From IMG/VR virus record IMGVR_UViG_3300042900_000713, positions 39,886-103,885 of that record: a DNA stretch of 64,000 nucleotides; one strand, written 5' to 3'. Position 1 is the stretch's first letter; each line of letters begins with the position of its first letter. The notes beneath the pieces were generated by a model. The model searched no databases, was not told where the DNA came from, and worked only from the letters and a program-made list of their open reading frames with translations. The stretch comes from a virus (Duplodnaviria > Heunggongvirae > Uroviricota > Caudoviricetes). Made by a program: the position numbers and the translations under genes. Shown one piece after another: positions 238 to 61,773 of the stretch.

Positions 238-488
238 ATCAGGGCAGCGGCGAGACGATCGCGCTTGCGGATGTTAACAATTGACCACTGATTGCGCTTG
301 CCATTACTAGAACGGGTCGCGGTGAGAATACCATCATCTTCCATGTCTACCATTACGGCATGGATTGTACCTTTGTGACGCTTCGGATCCATACCCATAA
401 TGCGCACGAGATCGCTACATGTTTGCGGTCCCTGTTGAATGAGAACGCTGCGGACTGCGATGCGGGTCAGAGCGGAGAAGTTGAGCAT
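231..488 (-). CDS. hypothetical protein, 85 aa (possible winged-helix-like)
   Basis: Internal ATG (486-488) lies immediately after cassette E2; the 166-aa track ORF 231..731 reads through the cassette and is probably artefactual. Confidence 0.5.
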   Translation of the reverse strand: MLNFSALTRIAVRSVLIQQGPQTCSDLVRIMGMDPKRHKGTIHAVMVDMEDDGILTATRSSNGKRNQWSIVNIRKRDRLAAALIG

Positions 489-572
489 CGGTCGGTGTCG
501 GTGTTGACTCTTTAATCCTAGTCGGTCAGGAGGGGGACCCGTGAGTCCCCCGAACCAGTTGTCAGACTGTCC
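489..572 (-). promoter_or_regulatory. PeSL-like cassette E2 (subfamily A)
   Basis: ttgactctttaatcctagtcggtcagg + GGGGGA…TCCCCC hairpin + box ccagttgtcagactgtcc. Confidence 0.6.
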
Positions 573-750
573 CGGCAGCGGGGATCCGTTTCTCAACTTC
601 TCGAGAATTGCGACCGGCGCCAGTGGCAGCATAAAATCGGGTTTTTGCGCCACCGACGCGGGAGCATACGAGTTCGCTACGCTTTGGTTTCGCAGTGGGC
701 AGGATGGTGACGGTGAAAGTCTGACCGTCAATGATCTCGATGGTGTTCAT
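562..750 (-). CDS. hypothetical protein 62 aa; C-terminal ~15 aa encoded by cassette E2
   Basis: ATG after E3 leader; stop inside E2 box (…GTV*). Confidence 0.3.
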   Translation of the reverse strand: MNTIEIIDGQTFTVTILPTAKPKRSELVCSRVGGAKTRFYAATGAGRNSREVEKRIPAAGTV

Positions 751-837
751 TGGTCTCGTGTGCGGTGTTGACTCTTTAATCCTAGTCGGTCAGGAGGGGG
801 GAACCGTGTCCCCCTTGTGCCGGTTGCTAGATTGTCA
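751..837 (-). promoter_or_regulatory. PeSL-like cassette E3 (subfamily A)
   Basis: Near-identical to E4 over ~85 bp including the first codon of the downstream gene. Confidence 0.65.
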
Positions 838-1089
838 CAGCATCTCGATCAGATGCATCATCGTGGTGATCTGAACCGGGGTCTGCCAGATGATGACATC
901 TTCCAACATATTGCCATTCGGGCGCATTACACCAACCTCGAAAGTGTCGTGCTGAATGTCACCTTTGAGTCCAGAATCCTTCGGACCCGCAACTACACTA
1001 ATGGTCCAATAGTTCCGGAAAGTGTACTCTGCGCGAGTGCCACCTTTGACTACACTGTGATCGAAGAAGTTCAGATCGGAGAAGTTCAT
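835..1089 (-). CDS. hypothetical protein 84 aa
   Basis: ATG follows E4 leader; stop in E3 box. Confidence 0.5.
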   Translation of the reverse strand: MNFSDLNFFDHSVVKGGTRAEYTFRNYWTISVVAGPKDSGLKGDIQHDTFEVGVMRPNGNMLEDVIIWQTPVQITTMMHLIEML

Positions 1090-1175
1090 TGGTCTCGTGT
1101 GCGGTGTTGACTCTTTAATCCTAGTCGGTCAGGAGGGGGAACCGTGTCCCCCTTGTGCCGGTTCTTCAAGTGTCT
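1090..1175 (-). promoter_or_regulatory. PeSL-like cassette E4 (subfamily A)
   Basis: ggtctcgtgtgcggtgttgactctttaatcctagtcggtcaggagggggaaccgtgtcccccttgtgccggttcttcaagtgtc. Confidence 0.65.
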
Positions 1176-1366
1176 TGGAGTTTTATTTGGGCATTATTCC
1201 AACGGCATACCGCACGATGTTTTGTGCCACAATCTTTGGTTGATGTGTGGTTATTATCACAAATCACCTTCCACATATCACGAAAATCCCAATCTTCAAT
1301 ACATTTTGCTTTTGCACCACATCTTGCACAAGGGGTAATGGGTGGAGTTTTAATTTTCTGTGCCAT
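1166..1366 (-). CDS. Cys-rich small protein 66 aa
   Basis: ATG follows E5 TATAAT promoter; stop TGA in E4 box. Confidence 0.5.
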   Translation of the reverse strand: MAQKIKTPPITPCARCGAKAKCIEDWDFRDMWKVICDNNHTSTKDCGTKHRAVCRWNNAQIKLQDT

Positions 1367-1446
1367 CAGTTCTCTGTGTGTATGAAACTATTATAAGGCA
1401 TCCAGAGGCATCCAGAGCACCCCTTGTGCCACTGATCAGACTGTCA
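1367..1446 (-). promoter_or_regulatory. cassette E5 (box + TATAAT -10)
   Basis: Minus: CTGATCAGTGGCACAAGG…GCCTTATAATAGTTTCATACACACAGAG…ATG. Confidence 0.6.
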
Positions 1447-1762
1447 CAAGGTATTGCCAGTTCTGATAGGTTTGCTTTACATCATCAGAGAATCTTACCA
1501 GTTCAGGATAACCTTCGCAGCGAATCCAAAGATAACAAATGATGCATAAGTCTTTAACTTGTGCATATGTTTTTTGAATAAGATCTTTACCACCATTCTT
1601 ATACCATTGTGCAATCTTTGTGCAAATGAAGGAAACAACAGCAACAGAAACAGCAACAAAAACAATACAAACATTGATCAGATTGTAAAAGTGTTTTTTG
1701 TACTCGATCTTTGAAAGTACACTGATCAGATCGTCAACGGGAGGAAAAGATGCGGTAAACAT
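1436..1762 (-). CDS. small membrane protein (~108 aa, one TM)
   Basis: Internal ATG at 1760-1762 preceded by E6 and GGGAtgtgtcTCCCC hairpin; hydrophobic stretch VCIVFVAVSVAVVSFI. Confidence 0.5.
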   Translation of the reverse strand: MFTASFPPVDDLISVLSKIEYKKHFYNLINVCIVFVAVSVAVVSFICTKIAQWYKNGGKDLIQKTYAQVKDLCIICYLWIRCEGYPELVRFSDDVKQTYQNWQYLVTV

Positions 1763-1860
1763 TGTTTTCTGATGAGGGGGGAGACACATCCCTCACAAGA
1801 TTTAAGATAACAGAAAATCAGGGGTCGTGGCGATCTTATGTGCCAGTTGTCAGACTGTCC
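1763..1860 (-). promoter_or_regulatory. cassette E6 (box + leader hairpin)
   Basis: atgtgccagttgtcagactgtcc box; GAGGGATGTGTCTCCCCCCTC hairpin before ATG. Confidence 0.5.
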
Positions 1861-1985
1861 ACCTTGGTGACCTTATGGGTCTGATGATGCTGTAGGATAA
1901 GGGGACAATCAGCAAAGACAGCAGAGGGGTATCTGCTTGATCAATCCATCGCCACTGAAGCACCTCTCAAATAGTAAGATAAAAA

Positions 1986-2014
1986 GTATAAAAAAAGGAG
2001 GCATGATTGCCTCC
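1986..2014 (-). terminator. rho-independent terminator (minus strand)
   Basis: Minus: GGAGGCAATCATGCCTCC + TTTTTTTATAC, downstream of 2031..2225. Confidence 0.7.
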
Positions 2015-2030
2015 AAGTTGATGTAATGAA

Positions 2031-2225
2031 TTAGTTGCCTCCTTCGAATAGAATTGCATCAGATTCTTTCAGATCTTCGAGGGTCATTGTACCTGCAGAA
2101 TCACCCTCAAAATCTGAAGTCTGGCACTCAACAACTTCTAAACCAGCGTCTTCGATTTGATCAATCGATGAACCTCGTATCCAGCAATAGCGACCGGCAG
2201 CATCAGCGCAGAGGAAAACTTCCAT
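2031..2225 (-). CDS. hypothetical protein 64 aa
   Basis: ATG (MEVFLC) directly after E7 leader CAAAGACACACCC; intrinsic terminator downstream. Confidence 0.5.
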   Translation of the reverse strand: MEVFLCADAAGRYCWIRGSSIDQIEDAGLEVVECQTSDFEGDSAGTMTLEDLKESDAILFEGGN

Positions 2226-2316
2226 GGTGGTTGGGTGTGTCTTTGGTTGACTCTTTAATCCTAGTCGGTCCAAAGGGGGAACCGAGTCCCCCTTGTGCCA
2301 GTTGTCAGAGTGTCAC
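2226..2316 (-). promoter_or_regulatory. PeSL-like cassette E7 (subfamily A)
   Basis: ttgactctttaatcctagtcggtccaaagggggaaccgagtcccccttgtgccagttgtcagagtgtcac. Confidence 0.65.
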
Positions 2317-2622
2317 AGCAGAATCAAACTCTTCAATCTTACCATCATAAGCAATAAACCAAGTGTGATTTTTCTGATAGACAGATTCATCACCCTTACC
2401 ATTCTCCCGAAGGAGAGCATTAAGGCGAGACTTAGTTGTTTTAGTCTTCCAACCGCAATGATGAATAGTAATGAAACCTTCACCAATCTCGGCAATCTTA
2501 TGACCGTGAAGGTAAACTCGGGAAACTTCGTTACCCTCTTCATACTCAACACGAGTATTATCAAGGGACCAATCCTTACGGTTAAGGATTGCTGCGTTCA
2601 TCAGGGTTTCGATCTTACGCAT
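2305..2622 (-). CDS. hypothetical protein 105 aa
   Basis: ATG after E8 leader; stop in E7 box. Confidence 0.55.
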   Translation of the reverse strand: MRKIETLMNAAILNRKDWSLDNTRVEYEEGNEVSRVYLHGHKIAEIGEGFITIHHCGWKTKTTKSRLNALLRENGKGDESVYQKNHTWFIAYDGKIEEFDSAVTL

Positions 2623-2708
2623 GGTTTGAAGTGGTTTGGTTGACTCTGTAATCTTAAGGGGTCCGAAGGGGGAACCGTGTCCCCCTTGTGCCAGTTGTCA
2701 GAGTGTCA
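2623..2708 (-). promoter_or_regulatory. PeSL-like cassette E8 (A variant, -10 TAAGAT)
   Basis: ttgactctgtaatcttaagg + gggggaaccgtgtccccc + box. Confidence 0.6.
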
Positions 2709-2942
2709 CGCTGCCACTAGTTCAGTCGTGGGGATGAGCATACGCTCAGCAACCCAACGGCGGTAGGTTTGACCAATCGAACCGGTAGGACTTTCAAGGT
2801 AGTTAACAATCACGTCCTCACTTTCAGTGACGAAAGTGTAAACATTATTCAGATTGCCCTGAAAAGTGATGCTAACTTCTTGACCTTCGACATCAACAGA
2901 AGCGATGCAGGAAGATTGTTGCTCAGTAAAAGTGAAGTTCAT
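2706..2942 (-). CDS. hypothetical protein 78 aa
   Basis: ORF ends in E8 box. Confidence 0.5.
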   Translation of the reverse strand: MNFTFTEQQSSCIASVDVEGQEVSITFQGNLNNVYTFVTESEDVIVNYLESPTGSIGQTYRRWVAERMLIPTTELVAA

Positions 2943-3007
2943 GATAATAATAAAAAAAAGGGTTTGTTTGAGGCAGTTTTACATCTTACCTCAGGATGCT
3001 TATAAGG

Positions 3008-3160
3008 TTAGTCTTTATACAGATTATGAATCTTAGAGCGAATGGTGAACACTTGCTCTGGATCATAATCCTCATTATCCAAAGCATGACCAATGAAGTT
3101 GTAAATCATATCCCACTCATCTTCAGTAAAGAACTCTTTAATGGTGTCAGTGGTAGTCAT
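3008..3160 (-). CDS. hypothetical protein 50 aa (MTTTDT… N-terminus duplicated in 3275..3427)
   Basis: ATG after E9 leader CAAAGGCAAACCA; not in ORF track (<60 aa). Confidence 0.4.
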   Translation of the reverse strand: MTTTDTIKEFFTEDEWDMIYNFIGHALDNEDYDPEQVFTIRSKIHNLYKD

Positions 3161-3243
3161 TGGTTTGCCTTTGGTTGACTTACTTAAGATAACAGATCTT
3201 CAGGGTCTTGTGTGAGATCTCGTGCCACTTTGGAAACTGGCAC
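3161..3243 (-). promoter_or_regulatory. PeSL-like cassette E9 (subfamily B; palindromic box GTGCCA-N10-TGGCAC)
   Basis: ggttgacttacttaagata…cgtgccactttggaaactggcac; duplicate of E10. Confidence 0.6.
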
Positions 3244-3274
3244 ATCTCGACGAGATTGTAGTCTCGACTAGATT

Positions 3275-3427
3275 TTACATGCCCAGTAGTTTGTAATTAA
3301 GTTCGGATACTTCACCAACATCTAAACCAGTAATTTCCTGAACCTCATAAGAACTAAGTTGATTAAAGATCATGAGAAGTGCCGCAATCTCGCGGGCAGT
3401 GAATTGATTGGTGTCAGTGGTAGTCAT
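3275..3427 (-). CDS. hypothetical protein 50 aa (MTTTDT…)
   Basis: ATG after E10 leader; E10 is a duplicate of E9 including the first six codons. Confidence 0.4.
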   Translation of the reverse strand: MTTTDTNQFTAREIAALLMIFNQLSSYEVQEITGLDVGEVSELNYKLLGM

Positions 3428-3504
3428 TGGTTTGCCTTTGGTTGACTTACTTAAGATACAGGATTTTCAGGGTCCTGTGTGAGATCGTGTGCCACTTTGG
3501 AAAC
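3428..3504 (-). promoter_or_regulatory. PeSL-like cassette E10 (subfamily B)
   Basis: ~80-bp duplicate of E9 including MTTTDT codons. Confidence 0.6.
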
Positions 3505-3636
3505 TGGCACACGTAGGTTCATTGGTGAGTTAAAAAATCTACGGAATGCAGTAACAATAATGATACCCGTAGAAACTACACCAATCAAACCCAAAAAAGT
3601 AACCGTATCACCAGTGAAGTTGTAAGTTTCAATCAT
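3451..3636 (-). CDS. small membrane protein; C-terminal part read from cassette E10
   Basis: Hydrophobic N-terminal 40 aa; ORF continues through E10. Confidence 0.35.
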   Translation of the reverse strand: MIETYNFTGDTVTFLGLIGVVSTGIIIVTAFRRFFNSPMNLRVPVSKVAHDLTQDPENPVS

Positions 3637-3791
3637 CAGAAATCATGCCCAGAGTTAAGTGATTCGTTGAATGAAGCATCATCGTATCCATCTTCATCAT
3701 CATCACGAAGATAAGGATCATTCTCAAGTTGCTCCACAAGATCAAAACGAGATAGTTCCTCGATTTGATACCTTTGAGTGTAAGGATCCAT
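3636..3791 (-). CDS. acidic small protein ~51 aa
   Basis: ATG (MDPYTQ) after E11 TATGAT promoter/leader. Confidence 0.45.
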   Translation of the reverse strand: MDPYTQRYQIEELSRFDLVEQLENDPYLRDDDEDGYDDASFNESLNSGHDF

Positions 3792-3876
3792 TTGTTGTCT
3801 TTGGTGTGACTTGTTTATCATAGCAGCAGTTTAGAGACTTGCCTAGGTCTGTTGTGCCAGTTCTTATTCTGTCACA
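3792..3876 (-). promoter_or_regulatory. cassette E11 (subfamily D, -10 TATGAT)
   Basis: ttatcatagcagcagtttagagacttgcctaggtctgttgtgccagttcttattctgtcac; ~60 bp near-identical to E20. Confidence 0.6.
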
Positions 3877-4103
3877 ACCTCATAATCATAATCACTTACA
3901 CACCACCCAGAATCATCAGATAGTTTATCTGTCAATGCTTCAACAATGAAGTCAACAAAGTATTCTGGGTCTTCATCAATCTCAACCGTGAAGATCTTAT
4001 TCTCATAAGATTCTTCAACATCAATCATGTAGTTTTCATCTACATCATTGTCACCAGAAAAATCAAACTGAACATTGTTAACTTTAACCTGAACTTCAAT
4101 CAT
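3864..4103 (-). CDS. hypothetical acidic protein 79 aa
   Basis: ATG after E12 leader; stop in E11 box (…VVTE*). Confidence 0.55.
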   Translation of the reverse strand: MIEVQVKVNNVQFDFSGDNDVDENYMIDVEESYENKIFTVEIDEDPEYFVDFIVEALTDKLSDDSGWCVSDYDYEVVTE

Positions 4104-4186
4104 GATGTTTGAGGTGGTTGACTTGTTAATCTTAAGGGATCAGAGGGGGATCTCATGTCCCCCTTGTGCCAGTTGTCAGACCGTCA
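4104..4186 (-). promoter_or_regulatory. PeSL-like cassette E12 (hairpin GGGGGAtctcatgTCCCCC)
   Basis: Compensatory loop change relative to E3/E4 hairpin; -10 TAAGAT; box at fixed 31 bp. Confidence 0.6.
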
Positions 4187-4354
4187 CATCATACTTCATA
4201 AAACTTATAGTGGCGAATCTCTGACTGATAGAATGCTTCATCTTCAGAATCATTACAGAACCCGAGAAGATAGTTGCAAAGTTCGACCCGATGATTGCAA
4301 ACATCTTGCAGAATCTCAGGATTGCGTTGAAAGCAGTTGTTGAAATCGCGAATC
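4187..4354 (-). CDS. Cys-rich small protein 55 aa
   Basis: ATG after E13 leader CAAAGACACCCAAC; stop next to E12 box. Confidence 0.4.
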
Positions 4355-4440
4355 ATGTTGGGTGTCTTTGGTTGACTTGTTTAGTATAAGGCACCCAGAG
4401 CGGATCTTGGGTGCCTGTCTGTGCCAGTTGTCAGACCGTC
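4355..4440 (-). promoter_or_regulatory. PeSL-like cassette E13 (subfamily C, -10 TATACT)
   Basis: Hairpin ggcacccagagcggatcttgggtgcc + box gtgccagttgtcagaccgtcac. Confidence 0.6.
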
Positions 4441-4642
4441 ACATCAGGTCTTCATACTCACCAGAATCCATCGCATCTTCCAGTGCAGTCACCAGACCGT
4501 CGAAGTCTTCAGATGAAGGTAGGATACCAGTGAGAATGTTGACCAGATCACCATACTCTTCGCGGAGTTCGTCCAGATACTCTTTGCGATCAGCGTAACC
4601 GTTATCAGTGTAGACGGACATGAGTGGTTCGGTGTTGAACAA
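4439..4642 (-). CDS. acidic small protein 67 aa (alternative start MSVYT at ~4619)
   Basis: Degenerate cassette upstream; stop in E13 box. Confidence 0.45.
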   Translation of the reverse strand: MFNTEPLMSVYTDNGYADRKEYLDELREEYGDLVNILTGILPSSEDFDGLVTALEDAMDSGEYEDLM

Positions 4643-4712
4643 ATGTAATGTAGCAGCAATTCTCCACCAACACCAGAGTCCTGTGCCACTTCAGGAACCG
4701 TCTGAGAGGTGC
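4643..4712 (-). promoter_or_regulatory. degenerate cassette (box variant gtgccacttcaggaaccgtctga)
   Basis: Box-like sequence upstream of 4439..4642. Confidence 0.35.
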
Positions 4713-4896
4713 CCACAAGGACCTACAGCACCCTTGTAATAGTATTGTATACTCAAAGTACACAAACAAAAAAATAGATCAGGAACCACCCTGATCTACA
4801 TTATACTCAAACACCTACAAATACTTTAATTATAATTTACTCTACTCATTGGGTAACTTTTCTTATAGTGAGGCAAACCCATTCCTCATATTTAAT

Positions 4897-5064
4897 TTAA
4901 GCAGAAACCTCCATCCATTCAATATCATTACGGTAGACAATCATTGGTGATCCGTAATCATCAACCTCATCAACGGCAAAATTAACTGCATGATGTTCTG
5001 ATGTAAAGAACTCCAGATCATCAGGATTAGATTTAGGAGCAACTGACCAGGAAACGAATGCCAT
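4897..5064 (-). CDS. hypothetical protein 55 aa
   Basis: Internal ATG (MAFVSW) after E14 leader CAAACAAACGTC. Confidence 0.4.
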   Translation of the reverse strand: MAFVSWSVAPKSNPDDLEFFTSEHHAVNFAVDEVDDYGSPMIVYRNDIEWMEVSA

Positions 5065-5144
5065 GACGTTTGTTTGGTTGACTTGTTTAGTATAAGGCAC
5101 CCAGAGCGGATCTTAGGTGCCTCGTGTGCCAGTTCTCAAACTGG
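5065..5144 (-). promoter_or_regulatory. PeSL-like cassette E14 (subfamily C)
   Basis: ggttgacttgtttagtataaggcacccagagcggatcttaggtgcc + box. Confidence 0.6.
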
Positions 5145-5315
5145 TCTGCTGTTCTTTGCTGCATGAATCAATTCTTCTTCTGACAGAATGTCAATGTAAC
5201 CATTCGGATAAACACTGCAGAAGTGATCCAGTGCATCATCTGCTTCATCATAAGAAGCATAAACCGCCAGAGTCTCATATGCATCTGGAGTGATCTCAAC
5301 GATGTAGTGTTCCAT
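5136..5315 (-). CDS. acidic small protein 59 aa
   Basis: ATG after E15 leader CAAAGGACACCTCTC; stop in E14 box. Confidence 0.45.
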   Translation of the reverse strand: MEHYIVEITPDAYETLAVYASYDEADDALDHFCSVYPNGYIDILSEEELIHAAKNSRPV

Positions 5316-5400
5316 GAGAGGTGTCCTTTGGTTGACTCTGTAATCATAAGGTACCTACAGGGTCTTCTAGGTGCCTCTTGTGCCAGTTCTTAAAGTGTCC
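5316..5400 (-). promoter_or_regulatory. PeSL-like cassette E15 (hairpin ggtacctacagggtcttctaggtgcc, -10 TATGAT)
   Basis: Different hairpin sequence, same architecture and spacing. Confidence 0.6.
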
Positions 5401-7797: not shown

Positions 7798-7877
7798 TAC
7801 TTCCAAGATCACAAGGATCTGAAGGGTATAAGTTACATAAGTTACATAATAATCTGATGAATCTGATGTATTTTAAG

Positions 7878-8033
7878 AACATAAGAACCATAATATACAC
7901 ATAAGATTACATAAGAACCATAAGACTACATAAGAACCATAAGATTACATAAGAACCATAAGACTACATAAGAACCATAAGATTACATAAGAACCATAAG
8001 ACTACATAAGAACCATAAGATTACATAAGAATA
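7878..8033. repeat. tandem 19-bp direct repeats TACATAAGAACCATAAGAY (~7.5 copies, 38-bp higher-order unit)
   Basis: Six perfect alternating GAC/GAT copies 7908-8021 plus degenerate flanking copies. Confidence 0.85.
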
Positions 8034-8098
8034 AAGTTTTCCACAAGTATAAAGAGTTTTCCACAAGTATAAAGAGTTTTCCACAGGTTTTCCACAAC
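8034..8098. repeat. tandem 20-bp repeats AGTTTTCCACAAGTATAAAG (2.5 copies; TTTTCCACA x4)
   Basis: Immediately upstream of the HNH gene. Confidence 0.8.
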
Positions 8099-14984: not shown

Positions 14985-15066
14985 TTCAGTTCGTTGGTTG
15001 TTCTTTCATAGTATAGTATCCCACACACCATCCCAGAGCACCCCTTGTGCCGGTTCTTCAAGTGTC
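14985..15066 (-). promoter_or_regulatory. cassette E22 (box + TATACT)
   Basis: ccccttgtgccggttcttcaagtgtc. Confidence 0.55.
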
Positions 15067-15288
15067 TCCCCTCACTTCCTCATAAGTCGTCACATCTAAA
15101 CGGGATTTGCCTACCCACATTTTACCACAAGAAAGGCAATTCACTTTGAAAGTTGTTATATTTGCATCGGGGTTAGTATTCACTCCATTTTTATCATAGA
15201 CTGGAATATATGATGCAAGAGTTGATGATCCACCACTATGAGAAAAAGCACAATCCTCTCTAGGACATTCTGGATTTGGGTTTTTCAT
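15058..15288 (-). CDS. Cys-rich zinc-ribbon-like small protein
   Basis: CPRED…CLSCG; stop in E22 box. Confidence 0.5.
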   Translation of the reverse strand: MKNPNPECPREDCAFSHSGGSSTLASYIPVYDKNGVNTNPDANITTFKVNCLSCGKMWVGKSRLDVTTYEEVRGDT

Positions 15289-20874: not shown

Positions 20875-20957
20875 TTGGAGTTTGTCTTGTGTATGAGTGT
20901 ATTATAAGGCATCTGGTGACCCTGTGGAGGGTGTTTGTGCCGGTTTCTCAAGTGTCC
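20875..20957 (-). promoter_or_regulatory. cassette E24 (subfamily E; TCCACA-17-TATAAT)
   Basis: ~80% identical to E25 over 80 bp. Confidence 0.65.
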
Positions 20958-21145
20958 CCAACAGAGTTGAGAGCAAGACCAATTCTACTAATTTTATTTT
21001 CTAAACTATTGTAATACTGATAAACATAATTATCATCAAGATTATCATTTTTTGCTTTCCTCACAAGAGCAAGCAAATCGTTAATCTCATAATTACTAAA
21101 GGGTTCTACCGTCCATTCACCGATAGATACAACTTTTTTAGTCAT
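20948..21145 (-). CDS. hypothetical protein 65 aa
   Basis: ATG after E25; stop in E24 box. Confidence 0.45.
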   Translation of the reverse strand: MTKKVVSIGEWTVEPFSNYEINDLLALVRKAKNDNLDDNYVYQYYNSLENKISRIGLALNSVGDT

Positions 21146-21227
21146 CAGGTGTCTTTGTGTGTATGAATGTATTATAGGGCATCTGGTGCCCCTGTGAAGT
21201 ACCCTTGTGCCGGTTTCTCAAGTGTCC
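21146..21227 (-). promoter_or_regulatory. cassette E25 (subfamily E; TTCACA-17-TATAAT)
   Basis: gtgtatgaatgtattatagggcatctggtgcccctgtgaagtacccttgtgccggtttctcaagtgtcc. Confidence 0.65.
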
Positions 21228-21257
21228 TCGTTCTCTATTTCCGAATAGCGAATAATA

Positions 21258-21443
21258 TCATAATGCTTGGTATTCATCAAAACCTTCTGGGTTAAAATGT
21301 CCTATAGTAAGTTTAATTGTTTCACCAGTAAGTTCGTGTTTTAATACAACTCTGTGTGAATATTGTTTCACTACGATATAAGCATCATTAGAGGTTTTAT
21401 GCTTCCATCTGGAATTTATTTCAAGTTGTCTCATAATCATCAA
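21258..21443 (-). CDS. hypothetical protein 61 aa
   Basis: Stop in E25 box. Confidence 0.45.
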   Translation of the reverse strand: MMIMRQLEINSRWKHKTSNDAYIVVKQYSHRVVLKHELTGETIKLTIGHFNPEGFDEYQAL

Positions 21444-21467
21444 AATCTCTGGGTTCTACAAGTGTCC
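21444..21467 (-). promoter_or_regulatory. box remnant E26 (ctacaagtgtcc)
   Basis: Half-box at the 3' boundary of GIY-YIG cassette copy 1. Confidence 0.3.
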
Positions 21468-22139
21468 TTATTCTAATCTTTTTCTTTTGGAAGTATCAAT
21501 ACCTTTTGCTTTTTGATACTTTGTTAGATTTCCCGCATTAGTTATAAATCCAGTTTCAAGGCATTCCCATCGTTGTGCGGCAACTTTTTTTCCAGTTTCA
21601 CTTAATTGCTCTGTTGTAAGTCTGTGAATACCTATTTTTAGTTTTCTTCTCGTTAGCAAACTTTGTCTTGCTGTTTTTTGTCGTTGTTCTTTGGTTAAAC
21701 CACAAATACCAACACCAAGTTCTTTTACTTTTGCTCCACCTTTTTTTGCATTTTCTATTGTTTCTTCTTTTGTAAGTGAGTGAATACCAAGTTTCAATTC
21801 AGTTATTTTTTGACCTCCTTTTCTTCCTGCTATTCTTGCTTGTTTTATTGATATTGTTCCCGCACAACTTTCATTTAGACACCAGTTATCAGTATTATAA
21901 ACTGGTTTTATCAATCTTTGTTCTACTTTATTTGCTTCTATCCAACTTTCATCAGTAAAAGAAAATACTTCCAATATTTGTTTCTTTGGAGTATAAAGTT
22001 CCCAGCACCATTTATGAGTTTCAGGAGAACCCCAATACTCCTCATCAAATCTTTTTTCCTTATGAACTCCATAATAGTAATATGGAACTTCTTCAAATGT
22101 GATTTTATACAAGTATATTCTTGGACTATAAGAAGTCAT
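21468..22139 (-). CDS. GIY-YIG-like homing endonuclease with C-terminal NUMOD3-like repeats (copy 1)
   Basis: RIYLYKITFEEVPYYYYGVH (GIY…YIG spacing); repeated GIHSLTKEE / GICGLTKEQ modules; paralog of 42291..43088. Confidence 0.7.
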   Translation of the reverse strand: MTSYSPRIYLYKITFEEVPYYYYGVHKEKRFDEEYWGSPETHKWCWELYTPKKQILEVFSFTDESWIEANKVEQRLIKPVYNTDNWCLNESCAGTISIKQARIAGRKGGQKITELKLGIHSLTKEETIENAKKGGAKVKELGVGICGLTKEQRQKTARQSLLTRRKLKIGIHRLTTEQLSETGKKVAAQRWECLETGFITNAGNLTKYQKAKGIDTSKRKRLE

Positions 22140-22166
22140 AGTTCTACTTTACTAATACGGCATTAC

Positions 22167-22174
22167 TATTTATA
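22167..22174 (-). promoter_or_regulatory. T4-type late promoter motif TATAAATA upstream of GIY-YIG copy 1
   Basis: ~30 nt upstream of the ATG at 22139. Confidence 0.55.
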
Positions 22175-22175
22175 C

Positions 22176-22198
22176 AAGAAAAGGTGCCCGAAAGCACC
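22176..22198 (-). terminator. terminator hairpin GGTGCttcgGGCACC + T-rich tail (GIY-YIG cassette copy 1)
   Basis: Conserved with copy 2 at ~43135-43155. Confidence 0.5.
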
Positions 22199-22242
22199 CA
22201 ATCTATACTTATTGAAATTGCCGTATCAGTAAGCATCTTTAT

Positions 22243-22491
22243 TTATGTAGTTTCATTTTCTTCCTCTATCACATCATCAAGTTCTTGAACATTACTCTCA
22301 AATTTTATAAATCTCAAATTATTCAAGTCCTCTAAAAGTTCATTCTTTCTTTCATTTATCTTTTGAATTTCTTCTTTGCTTTCTTCTGTATCACTTATGC
22401 TGTTTTCATACCATACAAGATACTGTTCGCAACCCTCAATCTCTTCAAGAACAAGTTTCTCACACCTTTCAATTGTTTCTATGAGTTTCAT
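22243..22491 (-). CDS. acidic hypothetical protein 82 aa
   Basis: Minus ORF. Confidence 0.5.
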   Translation of the reverse strand: MKLIETIERCEKLVLEEIEGCEQYLVWYENSISDTEESKEEIQKINERKNELLEDLNNLRFIKFESNVQELDDVIEEENETT

Positions 22492-22690
22492 TTAGTTTCT
22501 CCTGTGCTTTACGACGAGCATCATATAATTCCCGAAGTCGTTGAGACCTCTCCCCTCGTTTCTTAACTTGTTCTGGACTATTATACCACGCACTATTATA
22601 TCCGTGCTCTGGGCATTCTGGATTTAGATTTTTATTGTCTGATACTGTGGTTCCTATTTTGATATGAGAACAGGTGCAGGTAGAGTTCAT
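22469..22690 (-). CDS. hypothetical protein 73 aa
   Basis: Minus ORF. Confidence 0.45.
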   Translation of the reverse strand: MNSTCTCSHIKIGTTVSDNKNLNPECPEHGYNSAWYNSPEQVKKRGERSQRLRELYDARRKAQEKLNETHRNN

Positions 22691-22691
22691 T

Positions 22692-22970
22692 TCAAACCTC
22701 CAAAATCACAACTTCTTTTCTTTCCATAGCAATTTCACCATCTACCAACTTACCATCAATCTCGTCTCTATACTCACAAGTATTTTCAGTAAATGAGTAG
22801 TATTCAATATTACTCTGCCACTTGGTAGTATAAACACAATGATGTATGCGGGATTGACGAATTACAAACTCATCCTCAATGTGCTCTCTATAGTTGTCCT
22901 TATAAACAATCAGGACTTCCATATCATCTGGGTAGTTCTCCAAAAGTGCTTTTAGATGTATAAGTTTCAT
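22692..22970 (-). CDS. member of MKxKxLKxLLExxPDDMEV small-protein family (92 aa)
   Basis: N-terminus MKLIHLKALLENYPDDMEV shared with 22974, 23500 and 23909 genes. Confidence 0.5.
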   Translation of the reverse strand: MKLIHLKALLENYPDDMEVLIVYKDNYREHIEDEFVIRQSRIHHCVYTTKWQSNIEYYSFTENTCEYRDEIDGKLVDGEIAMERKEVVILEV

Positions 22971-22973
22971 AAT

Positions 22974-23207
22974 TCAATAAAGCAAAAGGACATCTGTATT
23001 CACTCTTTGAAAATTCCAATAATCATCACTGTCTTCTTTATAATATAATGTATATTCAGTAGGGTTATTTAAATATGCAGGTCCCACTGTTGCTGTTATA
23101 ACTACCAAGTCTATTGTTCTATTATAGTCACTACTCCCATCATCTGTAACAATTTCCATATCTTCTGGAAATTTTTTTAATTTTTCTATAAGGTCTTTGA
23201 TTTTCAT
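22974..23207 (-). CDS. member of MKxKxLKxLLExxPDDMEV family (77 aa)
   Basis: MKIKDLIEKLKKFPEDMEI…DVLLLY. Confidence 0.5.
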   Translation of the reverse strand: MKIKDLIEKLKKFPEDMEIVTDDGSSDYNRTIDLVVITATVGPAYLNNPTEYTLYYKEDSDDYWNFQRVNTDVLLLY

Positions 23208-23217
23208 AAGTTAACAA

Positions 23218-23496
23218 TTAGTAACGAACGTCATAAAGTTCTTCCACTTTCTCAATACAGGGGCAGTAAAAATCCATTCTTGTTTTTTCTACGAAGCAAC
23301 CAACTTTAAACATATGGGGAGTTAAACTAAAAGGACTTCTCCAAGAAATCCAATCCTGCCTTTGATTACACCAATAGATGCATTTATAATAAAGATTTAT
23401 ATCCTCATAAGTCGTCAAGTAATATCCAGATTTACTTGGTTTTGTCTCTGGATATTTCGTCCAATCTTCTGTTGGGATGTTGCTATAGTTTTTCAT
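23218..23496 (-). CDS. Cys/Trp-rich hypothetical protein 92 aa
   Basis: Minus ORF. Confidence 0.5.
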   Translation of the reverse strand: MKNYSNIPTEDWTKYPETKPSKSGYYLTTYEDINLYYKCIYWCNQRQDWISWRSPFSLTPHMFKVGCFVEKTRMDFYCPCIEKVEELYDVRY

Positions 23497-23499
23497 AAG

Positions 23500-23733
23500 T
23501 CAATAAAGCAAAAGAACATCTTTTTTAACTCTTCTCCAACTTAAATCATCATCAAGGTCTTTTTTATAATACATCAACATTAGAGGGTCATTTAAATCTT
23601 CAGGATATACTGTTGCAGTTATAACTTCTGAATCTATTTCAGTATCATAGAACATATGGGAAGAAATATCTTTAACCACTTCCATATCATCTGGGTAGTT
23701 CTCCAGAAGTGCTTTTAGATGTTTGATTTTCAT
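23500..23733 (-). CDS. member of MKxKxLKxLLExxPDDMEV family (77 aa)
   Basis: MKIKHLKALLENYPDDMEV…DVLLLY; closest to 22974..23207. Confidence 0.5.
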   Translation of the reverse strand: MKIKHLKALLENYPDDMEVVKDISSHMFYDTEIDSEVITATVYPEDLNDPLMLMYYKKDLDDDLSWRRVKKDVLLLY

Positions 23734-23912
23734 CGTTCCGCAACTACCTCAAAATCTTTCATAGAAATTCGTTTTTTCATCCAATTACTTTTAGCAAGAA
23801 TACCTTGATTCGGAAAATAAGGAATTGCTATAAGAGTGTAATAGGGAAACCTCAAAATGTTCTGATAAAGAGTGTAAAGGCATCCATCTTTTTTGTATCT
23901 GTAAAGTTTCAT
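23730..23912 (-). CDS. hypothetical protein 60 aa
   Basis: ATGA-coupled. Confidence 0.4.
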   Translation of the reverse strand: MKLYRYKKDGCLYTLYQNILRFPYYTLIAIPYFPNQGILAKSNWMKKRISMKDFEVVAER

Positions 23913-24202
23913 CGTTCAACAACCTCAAGAACAAGAACATCTTTTTTAGTTAGAGGGATATCTTCATAAATTTTCTGTCCATCTTTATAGTCCGTCCTTG
24001 CATGATATGTATCAGTAAAAAACTTACCGTAAACTTCTTCTTTGAGTCTCCATTTAGTCGGAAAGGAACAGTATCCCAGTTCCCTATTATCAACTACAAA
24101 ATCATTTTCATAAACAACATATAAATCCGAAGAGTAATGAAGGACGACCTCCATATCATCGGGAAACATTTCTAAGAGTTCTTTTAGTTCTTTGTTTTTC
24201 AT
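23909..24202 (-). CDS. member of MKxKxLKxLLExxPDDMEV family (97 aa)
   Basis: MKNKELKELLEMFPDDMEV. Confidence 0.5.
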   Translation of the reverse strand: MKNKELKELLEMFPDDMEVVLHYSSDLYVVYENDFVVDNRELGYCSFPTKWRLKEEVYGKFFTDTYHARTDYKDGQKIYEDIPLTKKDVLVLEVVER

Positions 24203-24381
24203 TTCGGTGCTTTATGAGAGTTGATATGATAGTAATTCAAGTAATACCAAAAAAGATTTCTCATTCGGTCTTCATTTGTAAATCCGTCAATATGTGGATA
24301 CATATGACTTCTCCAAGAATACACACAATATTCCAATAGGTGAATGGAAGTGTAGATAGTCCATTTAGTATTTTTAGTCAT
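24199..24381 (-). CDS. hypothetical protein 60 aa
   Basis: ATGA-coupled. Confidence 0.4.
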   Translation of the reverse strand: MTKNTKWTIYTSIHLLEYCVYSWRSHMYPHIDGFTNEDRMRNLFWYYLNYYHINSHKAPK

Positions 24382-25593: not shown

Positions 25594-25784
25594 TTTGTTT
25601 TCTCCGTGAGTTTTAGATACTGATATTCAACCTTACATTTTGCTGGTTGTTCCATACAGTAGATGATACCTTTGTTTCTTCCAGTATCTTCTCCTATATT
25701 AAAACCTATAGAATATACCCCAGCAAGACAAGCAGCAAAAGCAGAAACTACTGGAGCAACCCACCAATCATCATTGTACATCAT
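25590..25784 (-). CDS. small membrane protein 64 aa
   Basis: VAPVVSAFAACLAGVYSIGF hydrophobic; after E27 (-10 TATACT). Confidence 0.45.
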   Translation of the reverse strand: MMYNDDWWVAPVVSAFAACLAGVYSIGFNIGEDTGRNKGIIYCMEQPAKCKVEYQYLKLTEKTK

Positions 25785-25863
25785 TCATTCCTTGGTTTCT
25801 CACAGTATAGCAGAAGGCACACCACCTCACCAGAGACAGTGTGACGGTTCTTCAAGTGTCCTC
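25785..25863 (-). promoter_or_regulatory. cassette E27 (box + TATACT)
   Basis: gtgtgacggttcttcaagtgtcc. Confidence 0.55.
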
Positions 25864-30380: not shown

Positions 30381-30640
30381 TTCAGTTCCTCACAAATCAT
30401 ACAGTATTTACATTGAAAAGAAAAATGGTCTTTATCGTTGGTTTTCTTTTCTCCATTTTCATACCAAGAATACACAACTTCAGTCCAAGGGTCTATGCTT
30501 CCATATTGATTAAGACCTTCAATCGTTACAACAGTTTTACCACCACCAGCACCAATCCACCGAGAACCAACTTTGAGTTCTTCTGCTTTGAATATGTGGC
30601 GAACAATTGCTTTATGCCCGTTGATGATTTCAGTTTCCAT
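30377..30640 (-). CDS. paralog A2 (METEIINGHKAIVRHIFKAEE…) ~87 aa
   Basis: Internal ATG after E29 (-10 TATGAT); paralog of 25852..26106. Confidence 0.5.
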   Translation of the reverse strand: METEIINGHKAIVRHIFKAEELKVGSRWIGAGGGKTVVTIEGLNQYGSIDPWTEVVYSWYENGEKKTNDKDHFSFQCKYCMICEELK

Positions 30641-30720
30641 CGGTTTGCTTGTGTATGTGAGTATCATAGCAGAAACACACCACCCCACAAGGAGCAGTGT
30701 GCCGGTTCTTCAAGTGTCCT
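30641..30720 (-). promoter_or_regulatory. cassette E29 (box + TATGAT)
   Basis: gtgtatgtgagtatcatagcag…gtgtgccggttcttcaagtgtcc. Confidence 0.6.
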
Positions 30721-42179: not shown

Positions 42180-42290
42180 TTGGTTTAATGTTTTCTTTAT
42201 TTAGAATCAATTAAGTTTTTTAGGTTTGCTGCACTCATTACACACAGTAGAAAATCCGTACTTAAAGCGTTCGATTTTTTGAAAGTGTCC

Positions 42291-43088
42291 TTATGACATT
42301 CGTATTCTTTTAGAAGTATCTATACCTCTTTTGTTTTGATACCGGGTAAGTGGTCCTGATGTTGATACATATCCAGTTTCAAGGCACATCCATTTTTGTG
42401 AGTTTGTTATTTTACTACCTATTTTACCACCTATTTTACCATTTTCAATTGTTTGTTCTGCAGTTAATCCAAAAATTCCTACACCAAGTTCTTTTGTTTT
42501 TTTACCACCCTTTTTATTATATTTTTTACCATTTTCCATTCTTTGTTCTGGGGTAAATCCGCATATTCCTATACCAAGTTCCTTTGCTTTTTTACCAGCT
42601 TTTTTACCATCTTCCGTCATTTGTTCTTTTGTTCTTCCACAAATCCCTGTTTTATTTTCCTTATGTTTTTGTCCTGATATTTTCCCACCTTTTTTACCAT
42701 CTTTGGTCATTTGTTCTTTTGTTCTTCCGTGAACTCCTATACCAAGTTCTTTTGTTTTTTTACCAGTTATTTTACCTGAATTTCTACAAATTTCTAAAGA
42801 AACCTTACCACCACAATTTTTATTAAGACACCATTTATCAGTATTATAAAATGATTTAATCAATCTTGTTTCAACTTCTTGTGCTTTAATCCATCCTTCA
42901 TCTGTATAAGAAAAGACTTCAAGTATTTGTTTCTTTGCTGTATAAAAATTCCAGCACCACTTATGAGTATATGGGGAACCCCAGTATTCCTCACCAAACT
43001 TCGTTTCCTTATGAACTCCATAGTAATAGTAAGGAACTTCCTCAAAAGTAATTTTGTATATGTAAATTCTTGGACTTTGTGAAGTCAT
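42291..43088 (-). CDS. GIY-YIG-like homing endonuclease with expanded NUMOD3-like repeat array (copy 2)
   Basis: RIYIYKITFEEVPYYYYGVH; six or more KELGIGxxGxTxEQ modules; ~75% identical to copy 1 over the N-terminal 100 aa. Confidence 0.7.
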   Translation of the reverse strand: MTSQSPRIYIYKITFEEVPYYYYGVHKETKFGEEYWGSPYTHKWCWNFYTAKKQILEVFSYTDEGWIKAQEVETRLIKSFYNTDKWCLNKNCGGKVSLEICRNSGKITGKKTKELGIGVHGRTKEQMTKDGKKGGKISGQKHKENKTGICGRTKEQMTEDGKKAGKKAKELGIGICGFTPEQRMENGKKYNKKGGKKTKELGVGIFGLTAEQTIENGKIGGKIGSKITNSQKWMCLETGYVSTSGPLTRYQNKRGIDTSKRIRMS

Positions 43089-43113
43089 CGTTATTCTATA
43101 AGAACTGCATTAT

Positions 43114-43121
43114 TATTTATA
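43114..43121 (-). promoter_or_regulatory. late promoter motif TATAAATA upstream of GIY-YIG copy 2
   Basis: ~28 nt upstream of the ATG at 43088. Confidence 0.55.
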
Positions 43122-43134
43122 AAAGTTTATAATA

Positions 43135-43155
43135 GAAAAGGTGCCCGGAAGCACC
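43135..43155 (-). terminator. terminator hairpin GGTGCttccgGGCACC + T-rich tail (GIY-YIG cassette copy 2)
   Basis: Paralog of the 22176-22198 element. Confidence 0.5.
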
Positions 43156-43199
43156 TAATCTTGTCCGTAGAGAATTGCAGTTCCTATAGACAATATTAT

Positions 43200-43433
43200 T
43201 TATTCATCTATTTTAATAGGTTTATCGCAAGAATTGCAATAATAACTAAATCCAGTCTTAAAGTATTTAACTGACTGAAAGTTTTCCAAATTCAGTGGTT
43301 TGGTTTCTTTGCACCGAGAACAAGTTCGTTCAGCGGGGAGTGATGATAATGTCTTTTGCACCTTGAGTTTTGATGTGATTTTCCCAAAAAATCGCTCCCT
43401 CCAGGTCAAGAAAAATTGCAGTGTGCTGAACAT
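43200..43433 (-). CDS. Cys-rich small protein 77 aa
   Basis: CSRC…CNSC. Confidence 0.45.
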   Translation of the reverse strand: MFSTLQFFLTWRERFFGKITSKLKVQKTLSSLPAERTCSRCKETKPLNLENFQSVKYFKTGFSYYCNSCDKPIKIDE

Positions 43434-43472
43434 AAGTTTTTTTCTTTGGTTTGAGATAAATGACTTCGTATT

Positions 43473-43658
43473 TCATTTTTCGCTTTCTTTGAGTAGTTTA
43501 ATTTTATCAAATTCTTTGGGATAAATCAAGATGCATACCTCTTTCAGTCTTTCTTCTGGATACTTATTAATACAAACTGTAATGTACGAGTTACATATAA
43601 ACTGAATAGTACCAACATAATCTTTATACTGAACCACAAGACCTTCATAAAATGTCAT
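43473..43658 (-). CDS. hypothetical protein 61 aa
   Basis: Minus ORF. Confidence 0.45.
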   Translation of the reverse strand: MTFYEGLVVQYKDYVGTIQFICNSYITVCINKYPEERLKEVCILIYPKEFDKIKLLKESEK

Positions 43659-61500: not shown

Positions 61501-61501
61501 C

Positions 61502-61756: not shown

Positions 61757-61773
61757 ATTAGTTTTTTAAATAT

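What the first reader, a model, noticed from the sequence alone, without database searches (positions are those of the whole stretch)
21444..22215. Duplicated GIY-YIG/NUMOD3 endonuclease cassette carrying its own terminator and TATAAATA late promoter (copy 1; copy 2 at 42240-43200)
Two genes ~21 kb apart share roughly 75% identity at the N-terminal nuclease domain (RIY[IL]YKITFEEVPYYYYGVH). Both share a 5' flank of hairpin GGTGCttcgGGCACC + T-tract + TATAAATA and a 3' boundary at AAGTGTCCTTAT (a half cassette-box). Copy 2 has an expanded array of ~14-aa KELGIGxxGxTxEQ (NUMOD3-like) DNA-binding repeats. Expression from a late promoter, flanked by its own terminator, suggests a self-contained mobile endonuclease unit that has homed into two cassette boxes.
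Basis: seen in the sequence. Interest (0 to 1): 0.65.

Follow-up and report, generated by a model that had tools for sequence, protein, structure and literature searches.

The report
Mobile endonuclease cassette, two copies
Two related genes in this T4-like cyanophage belong to a large, unnamed family of selfish-looking nuclease genes that carry their own switch for late-only expression; relatives lacking the gene at both sites show they are insertions, but this is a variation on what is known from phage T4.

Summary
Two minus-strand genes (21468..22139, 223 aa; 42291..43088, 265 aa) are paralogues: 76% identical over the first 97 residues and 50% overall. Each follows a GC hairpin, a T-run and TATAAATA, and each ends in TAA+GGACAC.

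The 5' flank is a conserved leader of about 105 nt, aligned here in 65 loci. A segment upstream of the terminator pairs with the mRNA leader (median 16 bp, ending about 5 nt before the ATG), and all 8 core pairs covary. TATAAATA lies inside this stem. This is the T4 arrangement (I-TevI, segB, mobE) that limits translation to late transcripts.

Relatives without the gene exist for both window sites (L112, L016) and for several other loci.

The "homed into two boxes" reading fails. Neither empty site holds a box. The box (a PeSL-like early promoter stem-loop) normally travels at the cassette's 3' end. In the window it is cut to 6-9 nt and fused inside resident genes.

Nuclease activity and target are untested. 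Verdict: a new variant of a known kind.

The parts
21468..22139 (-). Copy 1 ORF, 223 aa. It has an N-terminal GIY-YIG-fold domain (about aa 1-97), three 26-aa helical repeats (GIHSLTKEE.., GICGLTKEQ.., GIHRLTTEQ..) and a C-terminal module QRWECLETGFITNAGNLTKYQKAKGIDTSKRKRLE.
   Evidence: The exact protein occurs on at least 16 metagenome contigs.
22140..22250 (-). Copy 1 leader. In order: stop of the upstream 82-aa ORF inside CATAAATAA; segment X (GCTTACTGATACGGCA); terminator hairpin 22182-22199 plus T-run; TATAAATA 22167-22174; segment Z (TGCCGTATTAGTAAAGT); 6 nt; ATG.
   Evidence: (z -5.5).
21462..21467 (-). GGACAC directly after the copy 1 stop codon. This is the stub of the box that follows the gene in most relatives. 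Homology to the gene-less relative L112 resumes at 21461.
21444..21461 (-). TTGTAGAACCCAGAGATT.., the remnant 3' end of a resident gene (the 84-aa ORF of L112 ends ..FVEPRDFDDYETT*). It overlaps the start of ORF 21258..21443. It resembles box positions 7-16, which is why it looked like half a box.
22243..22491 (-). 82-aa ORF that always accompanies copy 1. Together with the cassette it replaces three ORFs of L112.
42291..43088 (-). Copy 2 ORF, 265 aa. Same architecture as copy 1, with four repeats at a spacing of 30/26/30 aa.
   Evidence: (family D2). The exact protein occurs on at least 12 contigs.
43089..43205 (-). Copy 2 leader. In order: stop of the upstream ORF inside GAATAAATAA; X (TCTATAGGAACTGCA); hairpin 43139-43156 plus T-run; a degenerate TATAAAC; TATAAATA 43114-43121; Z (TGCAGTTCTTATAGA); ATG.
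   Evidence: (z -5.7).
43200..43433 (-). Zn-ribbon ORF upstream of copy 2. Its last ~26 codons (FQSVKYFKTGFSYYCNSCDKPIKIDE*) are a second, divergent version of the 3' end that also survives downstream of the endonuclease gene.
42205..42290 (-). GGACAC stub plus the displaced original 3' end of the Zn-ribbon gene (FQKIERFKYGFSTVCNECSKPKKLN*). The resident intergenic spacer ATTCTAAATAAAGAAAACATTAA follows and is identical to the gene-less relative L016.

Best explanation
Each locus is a copy of a free-standing, homing-endonuclease-type gene cassette that is widespread in T4-like cyanophages.

The protein has three parts: a divergent GIY-YIG-fold nuclease domain, a variable array of 26-30-aa helical repeats, and a small conserved C-terminal module. 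The last two are presumed to bind DNA.

The complete module reads, in order:
- a stop codon for the interrupted upstream gene, embedded in nATAAATA;
- hairpin P1, which displays segment X;
- an intrinsic terminator, P2;
- the late promoter TATAAATA;
- segment Z, complementary to X;
- the ORF;
- usually a PeSL-like box carrying a sigma-70-type early promoter for the downstream genes.

Inferred mechanism. Transcripts coming from upstream are mostly stopped at P2. Those that read through fold X onto Z, which buries the whole 5' UTR to within about 5 nt of the AUG and keeps them untranslated. Transcripts that start at TATAAATA lack X and are translatable. The enzyme would therefore be made only late, as for T4 I-TevI, segB and Aeh1 mobE.

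The cassette spreads between co-infecting phages by recombination, probably started by the enzyme's own cut in gene-less relatives. In the window, both copies entered with the 3' box truncated. Each joined inside the 3' end of a resident gene at a short box-like microhomology, leaving the displaced gene end behind.

Shown here: paralogy, fold, leader conservation and covariation, and insertion polymorphism. Inferred: nuclease activity, target site, and timing of expression.
For: Family and fold:
- 1764 homologues at E<=1e-3, none with a Pfam domain; 351 representatives at 50% clustering.
- PHROG 314 'homing endonuclease', 2.8e-8.
- AF2 model, pLDDT 84, with a beta-beta-alpha-beta-alpha N-terminus.
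- Invariant Y9, Y22/Y23-G24, E73 and N89 sit where I-TevI has Y6, Y17-G19, E75 and N90 (alignment by eye).
- Between the two copies, the N-terminal domain shows 25 synonymous against 23 non-synonymous codon differences.

Leader:
- TATAAATA lies 22-30 nt before the ATG in 62 of 68 unique loci.
- RNAalifold finds the X:Z stem, and all 8 pairs show compensatory changes.
- The core stem is 96% paired, against <=51% for the whole structure when the 3' partners are slid.
- Cognate X:Z duplexes average -23.4 kcal/mol against -11.9 for non-cognate pairs.
- The duplex has a median of 16 bp, starts 5 nt after TATAAATA and ends about 5 nt before the ATG.
- Full leaders fold with z -5.5 and -5.7, whereas the late 5' UTR alone gives z about -0.3.
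- The T4 precedent is described in PMC2988022. NATAAATA is the cyanophage late-promoter consensus (PMC2984593).

Mobility:
- Only the gene, not its flanks, matches S-SRM01 at DNA level.
- Several contigs carry two copies.
- Empty sites: L016 for copy 2, L112 for copy 1, and L053, L098, L080 and L015 for other loci.
Against: - No sequence-level link to GIY-YIG. Pfam finds nothing in 83 members, a profile search of PDB sequences finds nothing, hhalign against I-TevI finds nothing, and Foldseek against the PDB finds nothing below E=1.
- The catalytic Arg of GIY-YIG enzymes (I-TevI R27) has no invariant Arg counterpart. An invariant Lys (K43) may replace it, so activity is uncertain.
- No Shine-Dalgarno sequence is evident in the region buried by X:Z.
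- Hairpin P1 also covaries and partly competes with X:Z, so the leader may work differently.
- All transfers seen could come from general or box-mediated recombination with no cut by this protein.
- The two window junctions are illegitimate joins, not clean homing products.
Confidence: 0.62

Rival explanations
1. Passive passenger. The cassette moves only by the general module shuffling of hyperplastic regions, that is, recombination at PeSL-like boxes and microhomologies. The protein would be a decayed or repurposed DNA-binding protein that no longer cuts DNA.
For: - Boxes flank most small ORFs here, and ordinary ORFs end in the same stop+GGACAC junction.
- The box travels with the gene.
- PeSL motifs are proposed to drive such shuffling (PMC2839356, PMC4122927).
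- There is no invariant Arg at the R27-equivalent position.
- Decayed copies exist: L087 has a stop at W44, and L008 keeps only the last ~40 codons.
Against: - The N-terminal domain is the most conserved part of the protein across hundreds of divergent members, with invariant acidic and amide residues at the GIY-YIG positions.
- The elaborate late-only control is typical of toxic nucleases.
- The gene's DNA is conserved far beyond that of its neighbours.
Confidence: 0.17
2. The leader encodes a small antisense RNA. The conserved upstream nATAAATA would be a second late promoter. It would drive a ~70-nt RNA made of hairpin P1 (with X in or next to its loop) plus terminator P2. That RNA would pair in trans with the 5' end (Z) of the endonuclease mRNA and throttle translation or trigger cleavage. 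Under this view the X:Z pairing does not act in cis on read-through RNA.
For: - nATAAATA is present in 64 of 65 aligned leaders and fits the cyanophage late consensus NATAAATA.
- It ends 5-7 nt before X, just as TATAAATA ends 5 nt before Z.
- P1 is 86% paired, with compensatory changes in 5 of 6 pairs, against <=48% in slid controls.
- A hairpin-displayed recognition sequence followed by a terminator is the usual antisense-RNA layout (general knowledge).
- An antisense RNA linked to a homing endonuclease gene is known in S-PM2 (CfrI).
Against: - The upstream motif also holds the stop codon of the preceding gene, so it may be conserved for that reason.
- Only about a third of the copies are a perfect TATAAATA.
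- No expression data are available.
- The cis model explains the same pairing with a documented precedent.
Confidence: 0.15
3. Phage-versus-phage or phage-versus-host weapon. The nuclease would be kept because it cuts competing phage genomes (marker exclusion) or host DNA, with its own spread a side effect.
For: - T4 Seg and Mob enzymes mediate localized marker exclusion (PMC2988022).
- Several copies per genome, with differing repeat arrays, could give several specificities.
Against: - Late-only expression is poorly suited to host DNA degradation.
- This rival cannot be separated from homing with sequence data alone.
Confidence: 0.06

Closest known systems
T4-type free-standing GIY-YIG homing endonuclease genes (segA-G, especially segB), together with the I-TevI regulatory arrangement
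   Same: - Free-standing gene between phage genes.
- N-terminal GIY-YIG fold joined to an extended C-terminal DNA-binding region.
- A late promoter placed inside an RNA stem that buries the translation start on longer transcripts (PMC2988022).
- Presence/absence polymorphism among relatives, and hybrid flanking genes.
   Different: - No detectable sequence similarity to Pfam GIY-YIG or NUMOD models.
- No invariant Arg at the R27-equivalent position.
- The DNA-binding part is a variable array of 26-30-aa KGG-like helical repeats plus a distinct C-terminal module.
- The stem is long-range (about 70 nt apart) and encloses a terminator.
- The module usually carries an early-promoter box at its 3' end.
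S-PM2 p181 (ORF downstream of F-CphI, between psbA and psbD), annotated as a hypothetical protein
   Same: It shares the repeats (TPEQR..KGG) and the C-terminal module (58% identity over 36 aa). tblastn aligns residues 32-209 to copy 1 at E 8e-19.
   Different: Its N-terminal subtype is different (HYTYYSYEEYGRGYIGKRS). It overlaps the end of F-CphI and has no leader of its own. The same subtype does carry the leader in contig L007.
PeSL (promoter-early stem-loop) mobile regulatory cassettes of T4-like phages (Arbiol 2010; Comeau 2014)
   Same: The boxes combine a stem-loop with a sigma-70-like promoter, lie between small ORFs of a hyperplastic region, and mark exchange boundaries. The leader core (hairpin + T-run + promoter) has the same layout with a late promoter in place of the early one.
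   Different: The boxes here have an extra conserved 5' half, GGACACTTGAAGAACYGGCACA, that often supplies the stop codon of the upstream ORF. PeSLs were described in enterobacterial, Vibrio and Aeromonas phages. The term 'cyanophage' does not occur in PMC4122927.
Hybrid genes created by GIY-YIG ORF insertion with a foreign 3' gene end (Allomyces mitochondrial atp6, Paquin et al. 1994; recalled from memory, not read here)
   Same: At copy 2 the interrupted gene has a new 3' end upstream of the endonuclease gene, and the displaced original 3' end survives downstream.
   Different: The setting is a phage genome, the endonuclease ORF is not fused in frame to the host gene, and the host gene is a small Zn-ribbon ORF.

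Membership tests
GIY-YIG nuclease superfamily | Match to the sequence family model (Pfam PF01541 or related) | tested here: not met
   No hit at E<=1 for either copy, for type-B relatives or for any of 83 members. PDB profile search and hhalign against I-TevI were both negative.
GIY-YIG nuclease superfamily | Alpha/beta fold with a three-stranded sheet (beta-beta-alpha-beta-alpha) | tested here: met
GIY-YIG nuclease superfamily | Catalytic residues: Tyr of GIY, Tyr-x-Gly of YIG, Arg (I-TevI R27), Glu (E75), Asn (N90) | tested here: inconclusive
   Invariant Y9, Y22/Y23-G24, E73 and N89 are at matching spacing. There is no invariant Arg; invariant K43-W44 in helix 1 is the likely counterpart. 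The alignment was made by eye from secondary structure, not from a structural superposition.
GIY-YIG nuclease superfamily | DNA cleavage activity | not testable with these tools
   Needs biochemistry.
NUMOD3 DNA-binding motif (Pfam PF07460) | Match to the NUMOD3 model | tested here: not met
   No hit in 83 members. The repeats resemble NUMOD3 and KGG only in pattern (G-x-x-H/G-x-T-x-E ... G-K-K-G-G). S-PM2 p181 gives a sub-threshold KGG hit at 0.016, and JGI names some members 'YciG'.
Homing endonuclease gene (free-standing) | Presence/absence polymorphism at the same site in related genomes | tested here: met
   Copy 2 against L016; copy 1 against L112; L066/L053, L067/L098, L075/L080 and L080/L015.
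Homing endonuclease gene (free-standing) | The enzyme cuts the gene-less allele near the insertion site and is over-inherited in crosses | not testable with these tools
   No target can be deduced. Junctions cluster at the first 6-9 nt of the box, which is suggestive only.
T4-type late-promoter-in-hairpin translational control | A late promoter lies between the two arms of a stem that covers the translation initiation region | tested here: met
   TATAAATA lies between X and Z in 62 of 68 leaders. The stem covaries and ends about 5 nt before the ATG.
T4-type late-promoter-in-hairpin translational control | Translation repressed on long transcripts and active on late transcripts | not testable with these tools
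   Needs transcript mapping and reporter assays.
PeSL-type composite promoter-terminator box | Stem-loop combined with a sigma-70-like -35/-10 pair, repeated between ORFs of a hyperplastic region | tested here: met
   About 24 boxes, all on the minus strand, each with a hairpin followed by TATAAT-like hexamers. Relatives show TTGAAA-17-TATGAT or TATAAT. Promoter function is untested.

The most novel reading that the evidence does not exclude
The endonuclease would recognise the conserved 5' half of the box (GGACACTTGAAGAACYGGCACA). That half is present about 24 times in one orientation in this window alone. The family would then be the nuclease that starts box-to-box module shuffling in cyanophage hyperplastic regions. 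On this reading, enzyme and repeat together form a system that generates genome plasticity, and a dedicated antisense sRNA made from the leader keeps the enzyme in check. This would explain two things: why every junction seen lies within the first 6-9 nt of a box or of a box-like sequence inside a gene, and why several copies with different repeat arrays coexist in one genome.
Probability: 0.1. Interest if true: 0.8.

Novelty: new variant of a known kind. Interest (0 to 1): 0.5.

Why it matters
If the protein is active, it defines a large family of homing-type endonucleases in cyanomyoviruses that current databases do not annotate: more than 1700 members, no Pfam model, and 'hypothetical protein' even in the isolates S-PM2 and S-SRM01. 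So far F-CphI is the one experimentally characterised free-standing homing endonuclease I found described in cyanophages.

The leader is a clean, strongly covarying RNA element; an Rfam scan of the copy 1 region gave no relevant match. It extends the T4 'late promoter inside a hairpin' control to a distant phage lineage and can be tested directly.

The module layout is terminator, late promoter, gene, then an early-promoter box. It shows how a selfish gene can insulate itself transcriptionally and restore expression of downstream host genes. The filled/empty pairs give concrete substrates for cleavage and homing assays. The variable repeat array might encode modular DNA recognition, which would be of practical interest.

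Full report
**1. What is in the window**

Both genes are on the minus strand: copy 1 at 21468..22139 (223 aa) and copy 2 at 42291..43088 (265 aa). They are 50% identical overall (E 2e-89). Over residues 1-97 they are 76% identical, and 79% at DNA level.

The hairpin GGTGCYTYCGGGCACC occurs only at these two places in 64 kb, against 0.01 expected. Both hairpins are scored as terminator-like. Each is followed by a T-run and TATAAATA. The window holds only five TATAAATA, all on the minus strand.

Both ORFs end TAA+GGACACTT.

The setting is a hyperplastic region of a T4-like cyanophage. It consists of small minus-strand ORFs, with RNA ligase and helicase genes also in the window. The only DNA match among phage records is Synechococcus phage S-SRM01, family Kyanoviridae.

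**2. The protein**

Pfam finds no GIY-YIG, NUMOD3 or NUMOD1 domain. This holds for either copy, for relatives and for all 83 aligned family members. A family profile finds nothing among PDB sequences. hhalign against I-TevI is negative, and Foldseek against the PDB is negative. PHROGs places copy 1 in phrog_314, 'homing endonuclease' (2.8e-8).

An AlphaFold2 model built with 83 sequences has pLDDT 84. Its N-terminal domain is beta-beta-alpha-beta-alpha, followed by helical repeats and a small beta-hairpin-plus-helix C-terminus.

Invariant residues Y9, Y22/Y23-G24, E73 and N89 have the spacing of I-TevI Y6, Y17-G19, E75 and N90. The catalytic Arg has no invariant Arg counterpart; K43 is the candidate (alignment by eye). 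I conclude that the fold is GIY-YIG. Catalytic competence is plausible but unproven.

The repeats are units of 26-30 aa with consensus xKELGxGIHGLTKEQxxENGKKGGK. Copy 1 has three and copy 2 has four; relatives have one to five.

The C-terminal module (QKWxCLETGxxxxxGxLxxYQxxxGIDTSKR) also ends S-PM2 p181, the unannotated ORF next to the known endonuclease F-CphI. That protein has a second subtype of the N-terminal domain. tblastn aligns its residues 32-209 to copy 1 at E 8e-19.

The family is large: 1764 hits, and 351 representatives at 50% clustering.

**3. The 5' flank is a structured leader**

S-SRM01 and 80 viral-contig loci share the same ~105-nt leader even though their upstream genes are unrelated. 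TATAAATA lies 22-30 nt before the ATG in 62 of 68 unique leaders.

On an alignment of 65 leaders, RNAalifold predicts a long-range stem. It joins a segment X, upstream of the terminator, to a segment Z, just downstream of TATAAATA. All 8 predicted pairs show compensatory changes, for example CG 31 / GC 19 / UA 12 at one pair.

- The core stem is 96% paired, and the terminator hairpin P2 is 97.5% paired. For the whole structure, versions with the 3' partners slid reach at most 51% paired.
- Cognate X:Z duplexes average -23.4 kcal/mol against -11.9 for non-cognate combinations. Fewer than 1% of non-cognate pairs reach the cognate median.
- The duplex has a median of 16 bp. It starts 5 nt after TATAAATA and ends about 5 nt before the ATG.
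- Both window leaders fold far better than shuffles (z -5.5 and -5.7). The 5' UTR that a late transcript would carry is unstructured (z about -0.3).

This is the arrangement documented for T4 I-TevI, I-TevII, I-TevIII, segB and Aeh1 mobE. There, long transcripts bury the ribosome-binding site, and a late promoter inside the structure yields translatable RNA (PMC2988022).

Two further features are conserved:
- A hairpin P1 overlaps the 5' part of X. It is 86% paired, with compensatory changes in 5 of 6 pairs.
- An upstream nATAAATA is present in 64 of 65 leaders. It contains the upstream gene's stop codon and fits the cyanophage late-promoter consensus NATAAATA (PMC2984593).

These two features allow a rival model in which a short late RNA (P1 plus P2) acts as an antisense regulator of the mRNA.

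**4. The 3' flank and the 'boxes'**

It consists of GGACACTTGAAGAACYGGCACA, then a GC hairpin, then a TATAAT-like hexamer. In relatives the hairpin loop carries TTGAAA 17 nt upstream of TATGAT or TATAAT.

It therefore resembles the PeSL promoter-early stem-loop motifs proposed to mediate module shuffling in T4-like phages (PMC2839356, PMC4122927).

Ordinary ORFs also stop at or inside the start of the box. ORF 20948..21145, for example, ends ..GDT* using GGACACTTGA.

In 44 of 64 unique loci the endonuclease stop codon is followed at once by such a box.

**5. Filled and empty sites**

*Copy 2.* Contig L016 has the same neighbours: a 234-aa protein, 61- and 48-aa ORFs, a Zn-ribbon ORF, then the MSQYKVTF.. 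ORF. It has no endonuclease gene. In the window, the sequence after TAAGGACAC is the original 3' end of the Zn-ribbon gene plus an intergenic spacer identical to L016. A second, divergent 3' end now closes the gene upstream of the cassette. The two ends are 57% identical to each other, and 72% and 75% identical to L016.

*Copy 1.* Contig L112 matches window 22846..22484 at 79% and 21461..21231 at 88%. Between these stretches it carries three other ORFs, where the window has the 82-aa ORF plus the cassette. Homology resumes exactly after TAAGGACAC. The apparent half box (TTGTAGAACCCAGAG) is the end of L112's 84-aa ORF.

Both window junctions thus lie inside resident genes, at sequences that merely resemble the start of a box: GGATTACTTTCAA in L016 and CCTTTTGTAGAACC in L112.

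*Other pairs among the fetched loci*:
- L066 against L053, and L067 against L098: insertion exactly at the 5' edge of a pre-existing box. The cassette supplies new final codons and a stop for the upstream gene.
- L075 against L080, and L080 against L015: the empty sites have no box. Leader, gene and box arrived together.

The box is therefore best seen as the 3' part of the module. It would restore early transcription of downstream genes after the module's own terminator. The window copies are the unusual cases in which the box was truncated.

**6. Other signs of a mobile, decaying family**

- Several contigs carry two copies.
- The exact proteins occur in differing downstream contexts.
- The same leader precedes both N-terminal subtypes (L007 and L110).
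- L006 has a different C-terminal domain, L008 keeps only the last ~40 codons plus the box, and L087 has a stop codon at W44.

**7. Verdict**

Its core idea, a self-contained and late-expressed mobile endonuclease unit, is well supported by comparative data.

The NUMOD3 label is not supported. The claim that the unit homed into two boxes is contradicted by the empty sites.

The mechanism I favour is a GIY-YIG-type homing endonuclease cassette under T4-style late-only translational control, spreading by recombination. The steps involving activity, target and timing are inferred.

Relative to known systems this is a new variant of a known kind: a sequence-divergent family with a distinctive repeat array, a long-range terminator-enclosing regulatory stem, and a 3' early-promoter box.

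Noticed in passing
window, minus strand, about 24 sites (e.g. 30640-30719, 25780-25861, 21150-21227, 20880-20957, 15000-15067, 1100-1175): Repeated intergenic box: GGACACTTGAAGAACYGGCACA, a GC hairpin and a TATAAT-like hexamer, always in the coding orientation. It resembles PeSL promoter-terminator motifs. The conserved 5' half has no obvious role, and it often supplies the stop codon of the upstream ORF (..GDT*).
   Followed up: partly
window 190-5400: A denser sub-family of boxes (repeat families D1, D5, D7 and D9). They have GGGGGA..TCCCCC hairpins and a shared TTGACTCTTTAATCCTAG segment, spaced 250-1500 nt apart.
   Followed up: no
window 7874-8044: Tandem array of a 19-nt unit (TAAGAACCATAAGACTACA), about 9 copies (family D3).
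   Followed up: no
window 43200-43433 (-); L017, L018; S-PM2 L002 2060-3114: The ORF invaded by copy 2 is a stand-alone Zn-ribbon. It is 48% identical over 46 aa to the N-terminus of Endonuclease VII-domain proteins with the F-CphI architecture. In S-PM2 the type-B relative of this family sits directly after F-CphI. The two endonuclease families may therefore be associated, or may target one another. The Zn-ribbon ORF also overlaps a conserved 48-aa ORF (43330..43476) in another frame, and gene callers skip it.
   Followed up: partly
window 21470-21499 (-): A sigma-70-like promoter match (TTGATA-18-TAGAAT, 10 of 12) lies inside the last codons of copy 1 (GIDTSKRKRLE*). It could drive the downstream ORF now that the box is truncated. 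It may be chance.
   Followed up: no
window 22692-24210 (-): A run of paralogous small ORFs (77 and 92 aa, MKIKDLIEKLKKFPEDMEV.. / MKLIHLKALLENYPDDMEV..) with conserved 5' ends (family D11).
   Followed up: no
window 60700-63232 (-): Three adjacent paralogous genes (266, 246 and 230 aa) sharing 70-83% identical DNA segments (families D4 and D16).
   Followed up: no
L087 1501-1632; L008 2676-3128; L006 3001-3675: Decayed or remodelled family members: a stop codon at W44 (L087); an unrelated N-terminus fused to the last ~40 codons plus the box (L008); and a replacement C-terminal domain with WWNDG..CPGEGWFPGRGK repeats (L006).
   Followed up: no
window 22005-22028 (-), copy 1 residues 38-45: SPETHKWC matches I-TevI residues 144-151, NPETHKFC (the start of its zinc finger), in hhalign at E 0.028. 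Probably coincidence; not explained.
   Followed up: no
window 43122-43136 (-): Copy 2 and about 10 relatives have an extra TATTATAAAC(T/A)(T/C)T segment. It is a degenerate duplicate of the late promoter, sitting between the T-run and TATAAATA.
   Followed up: no
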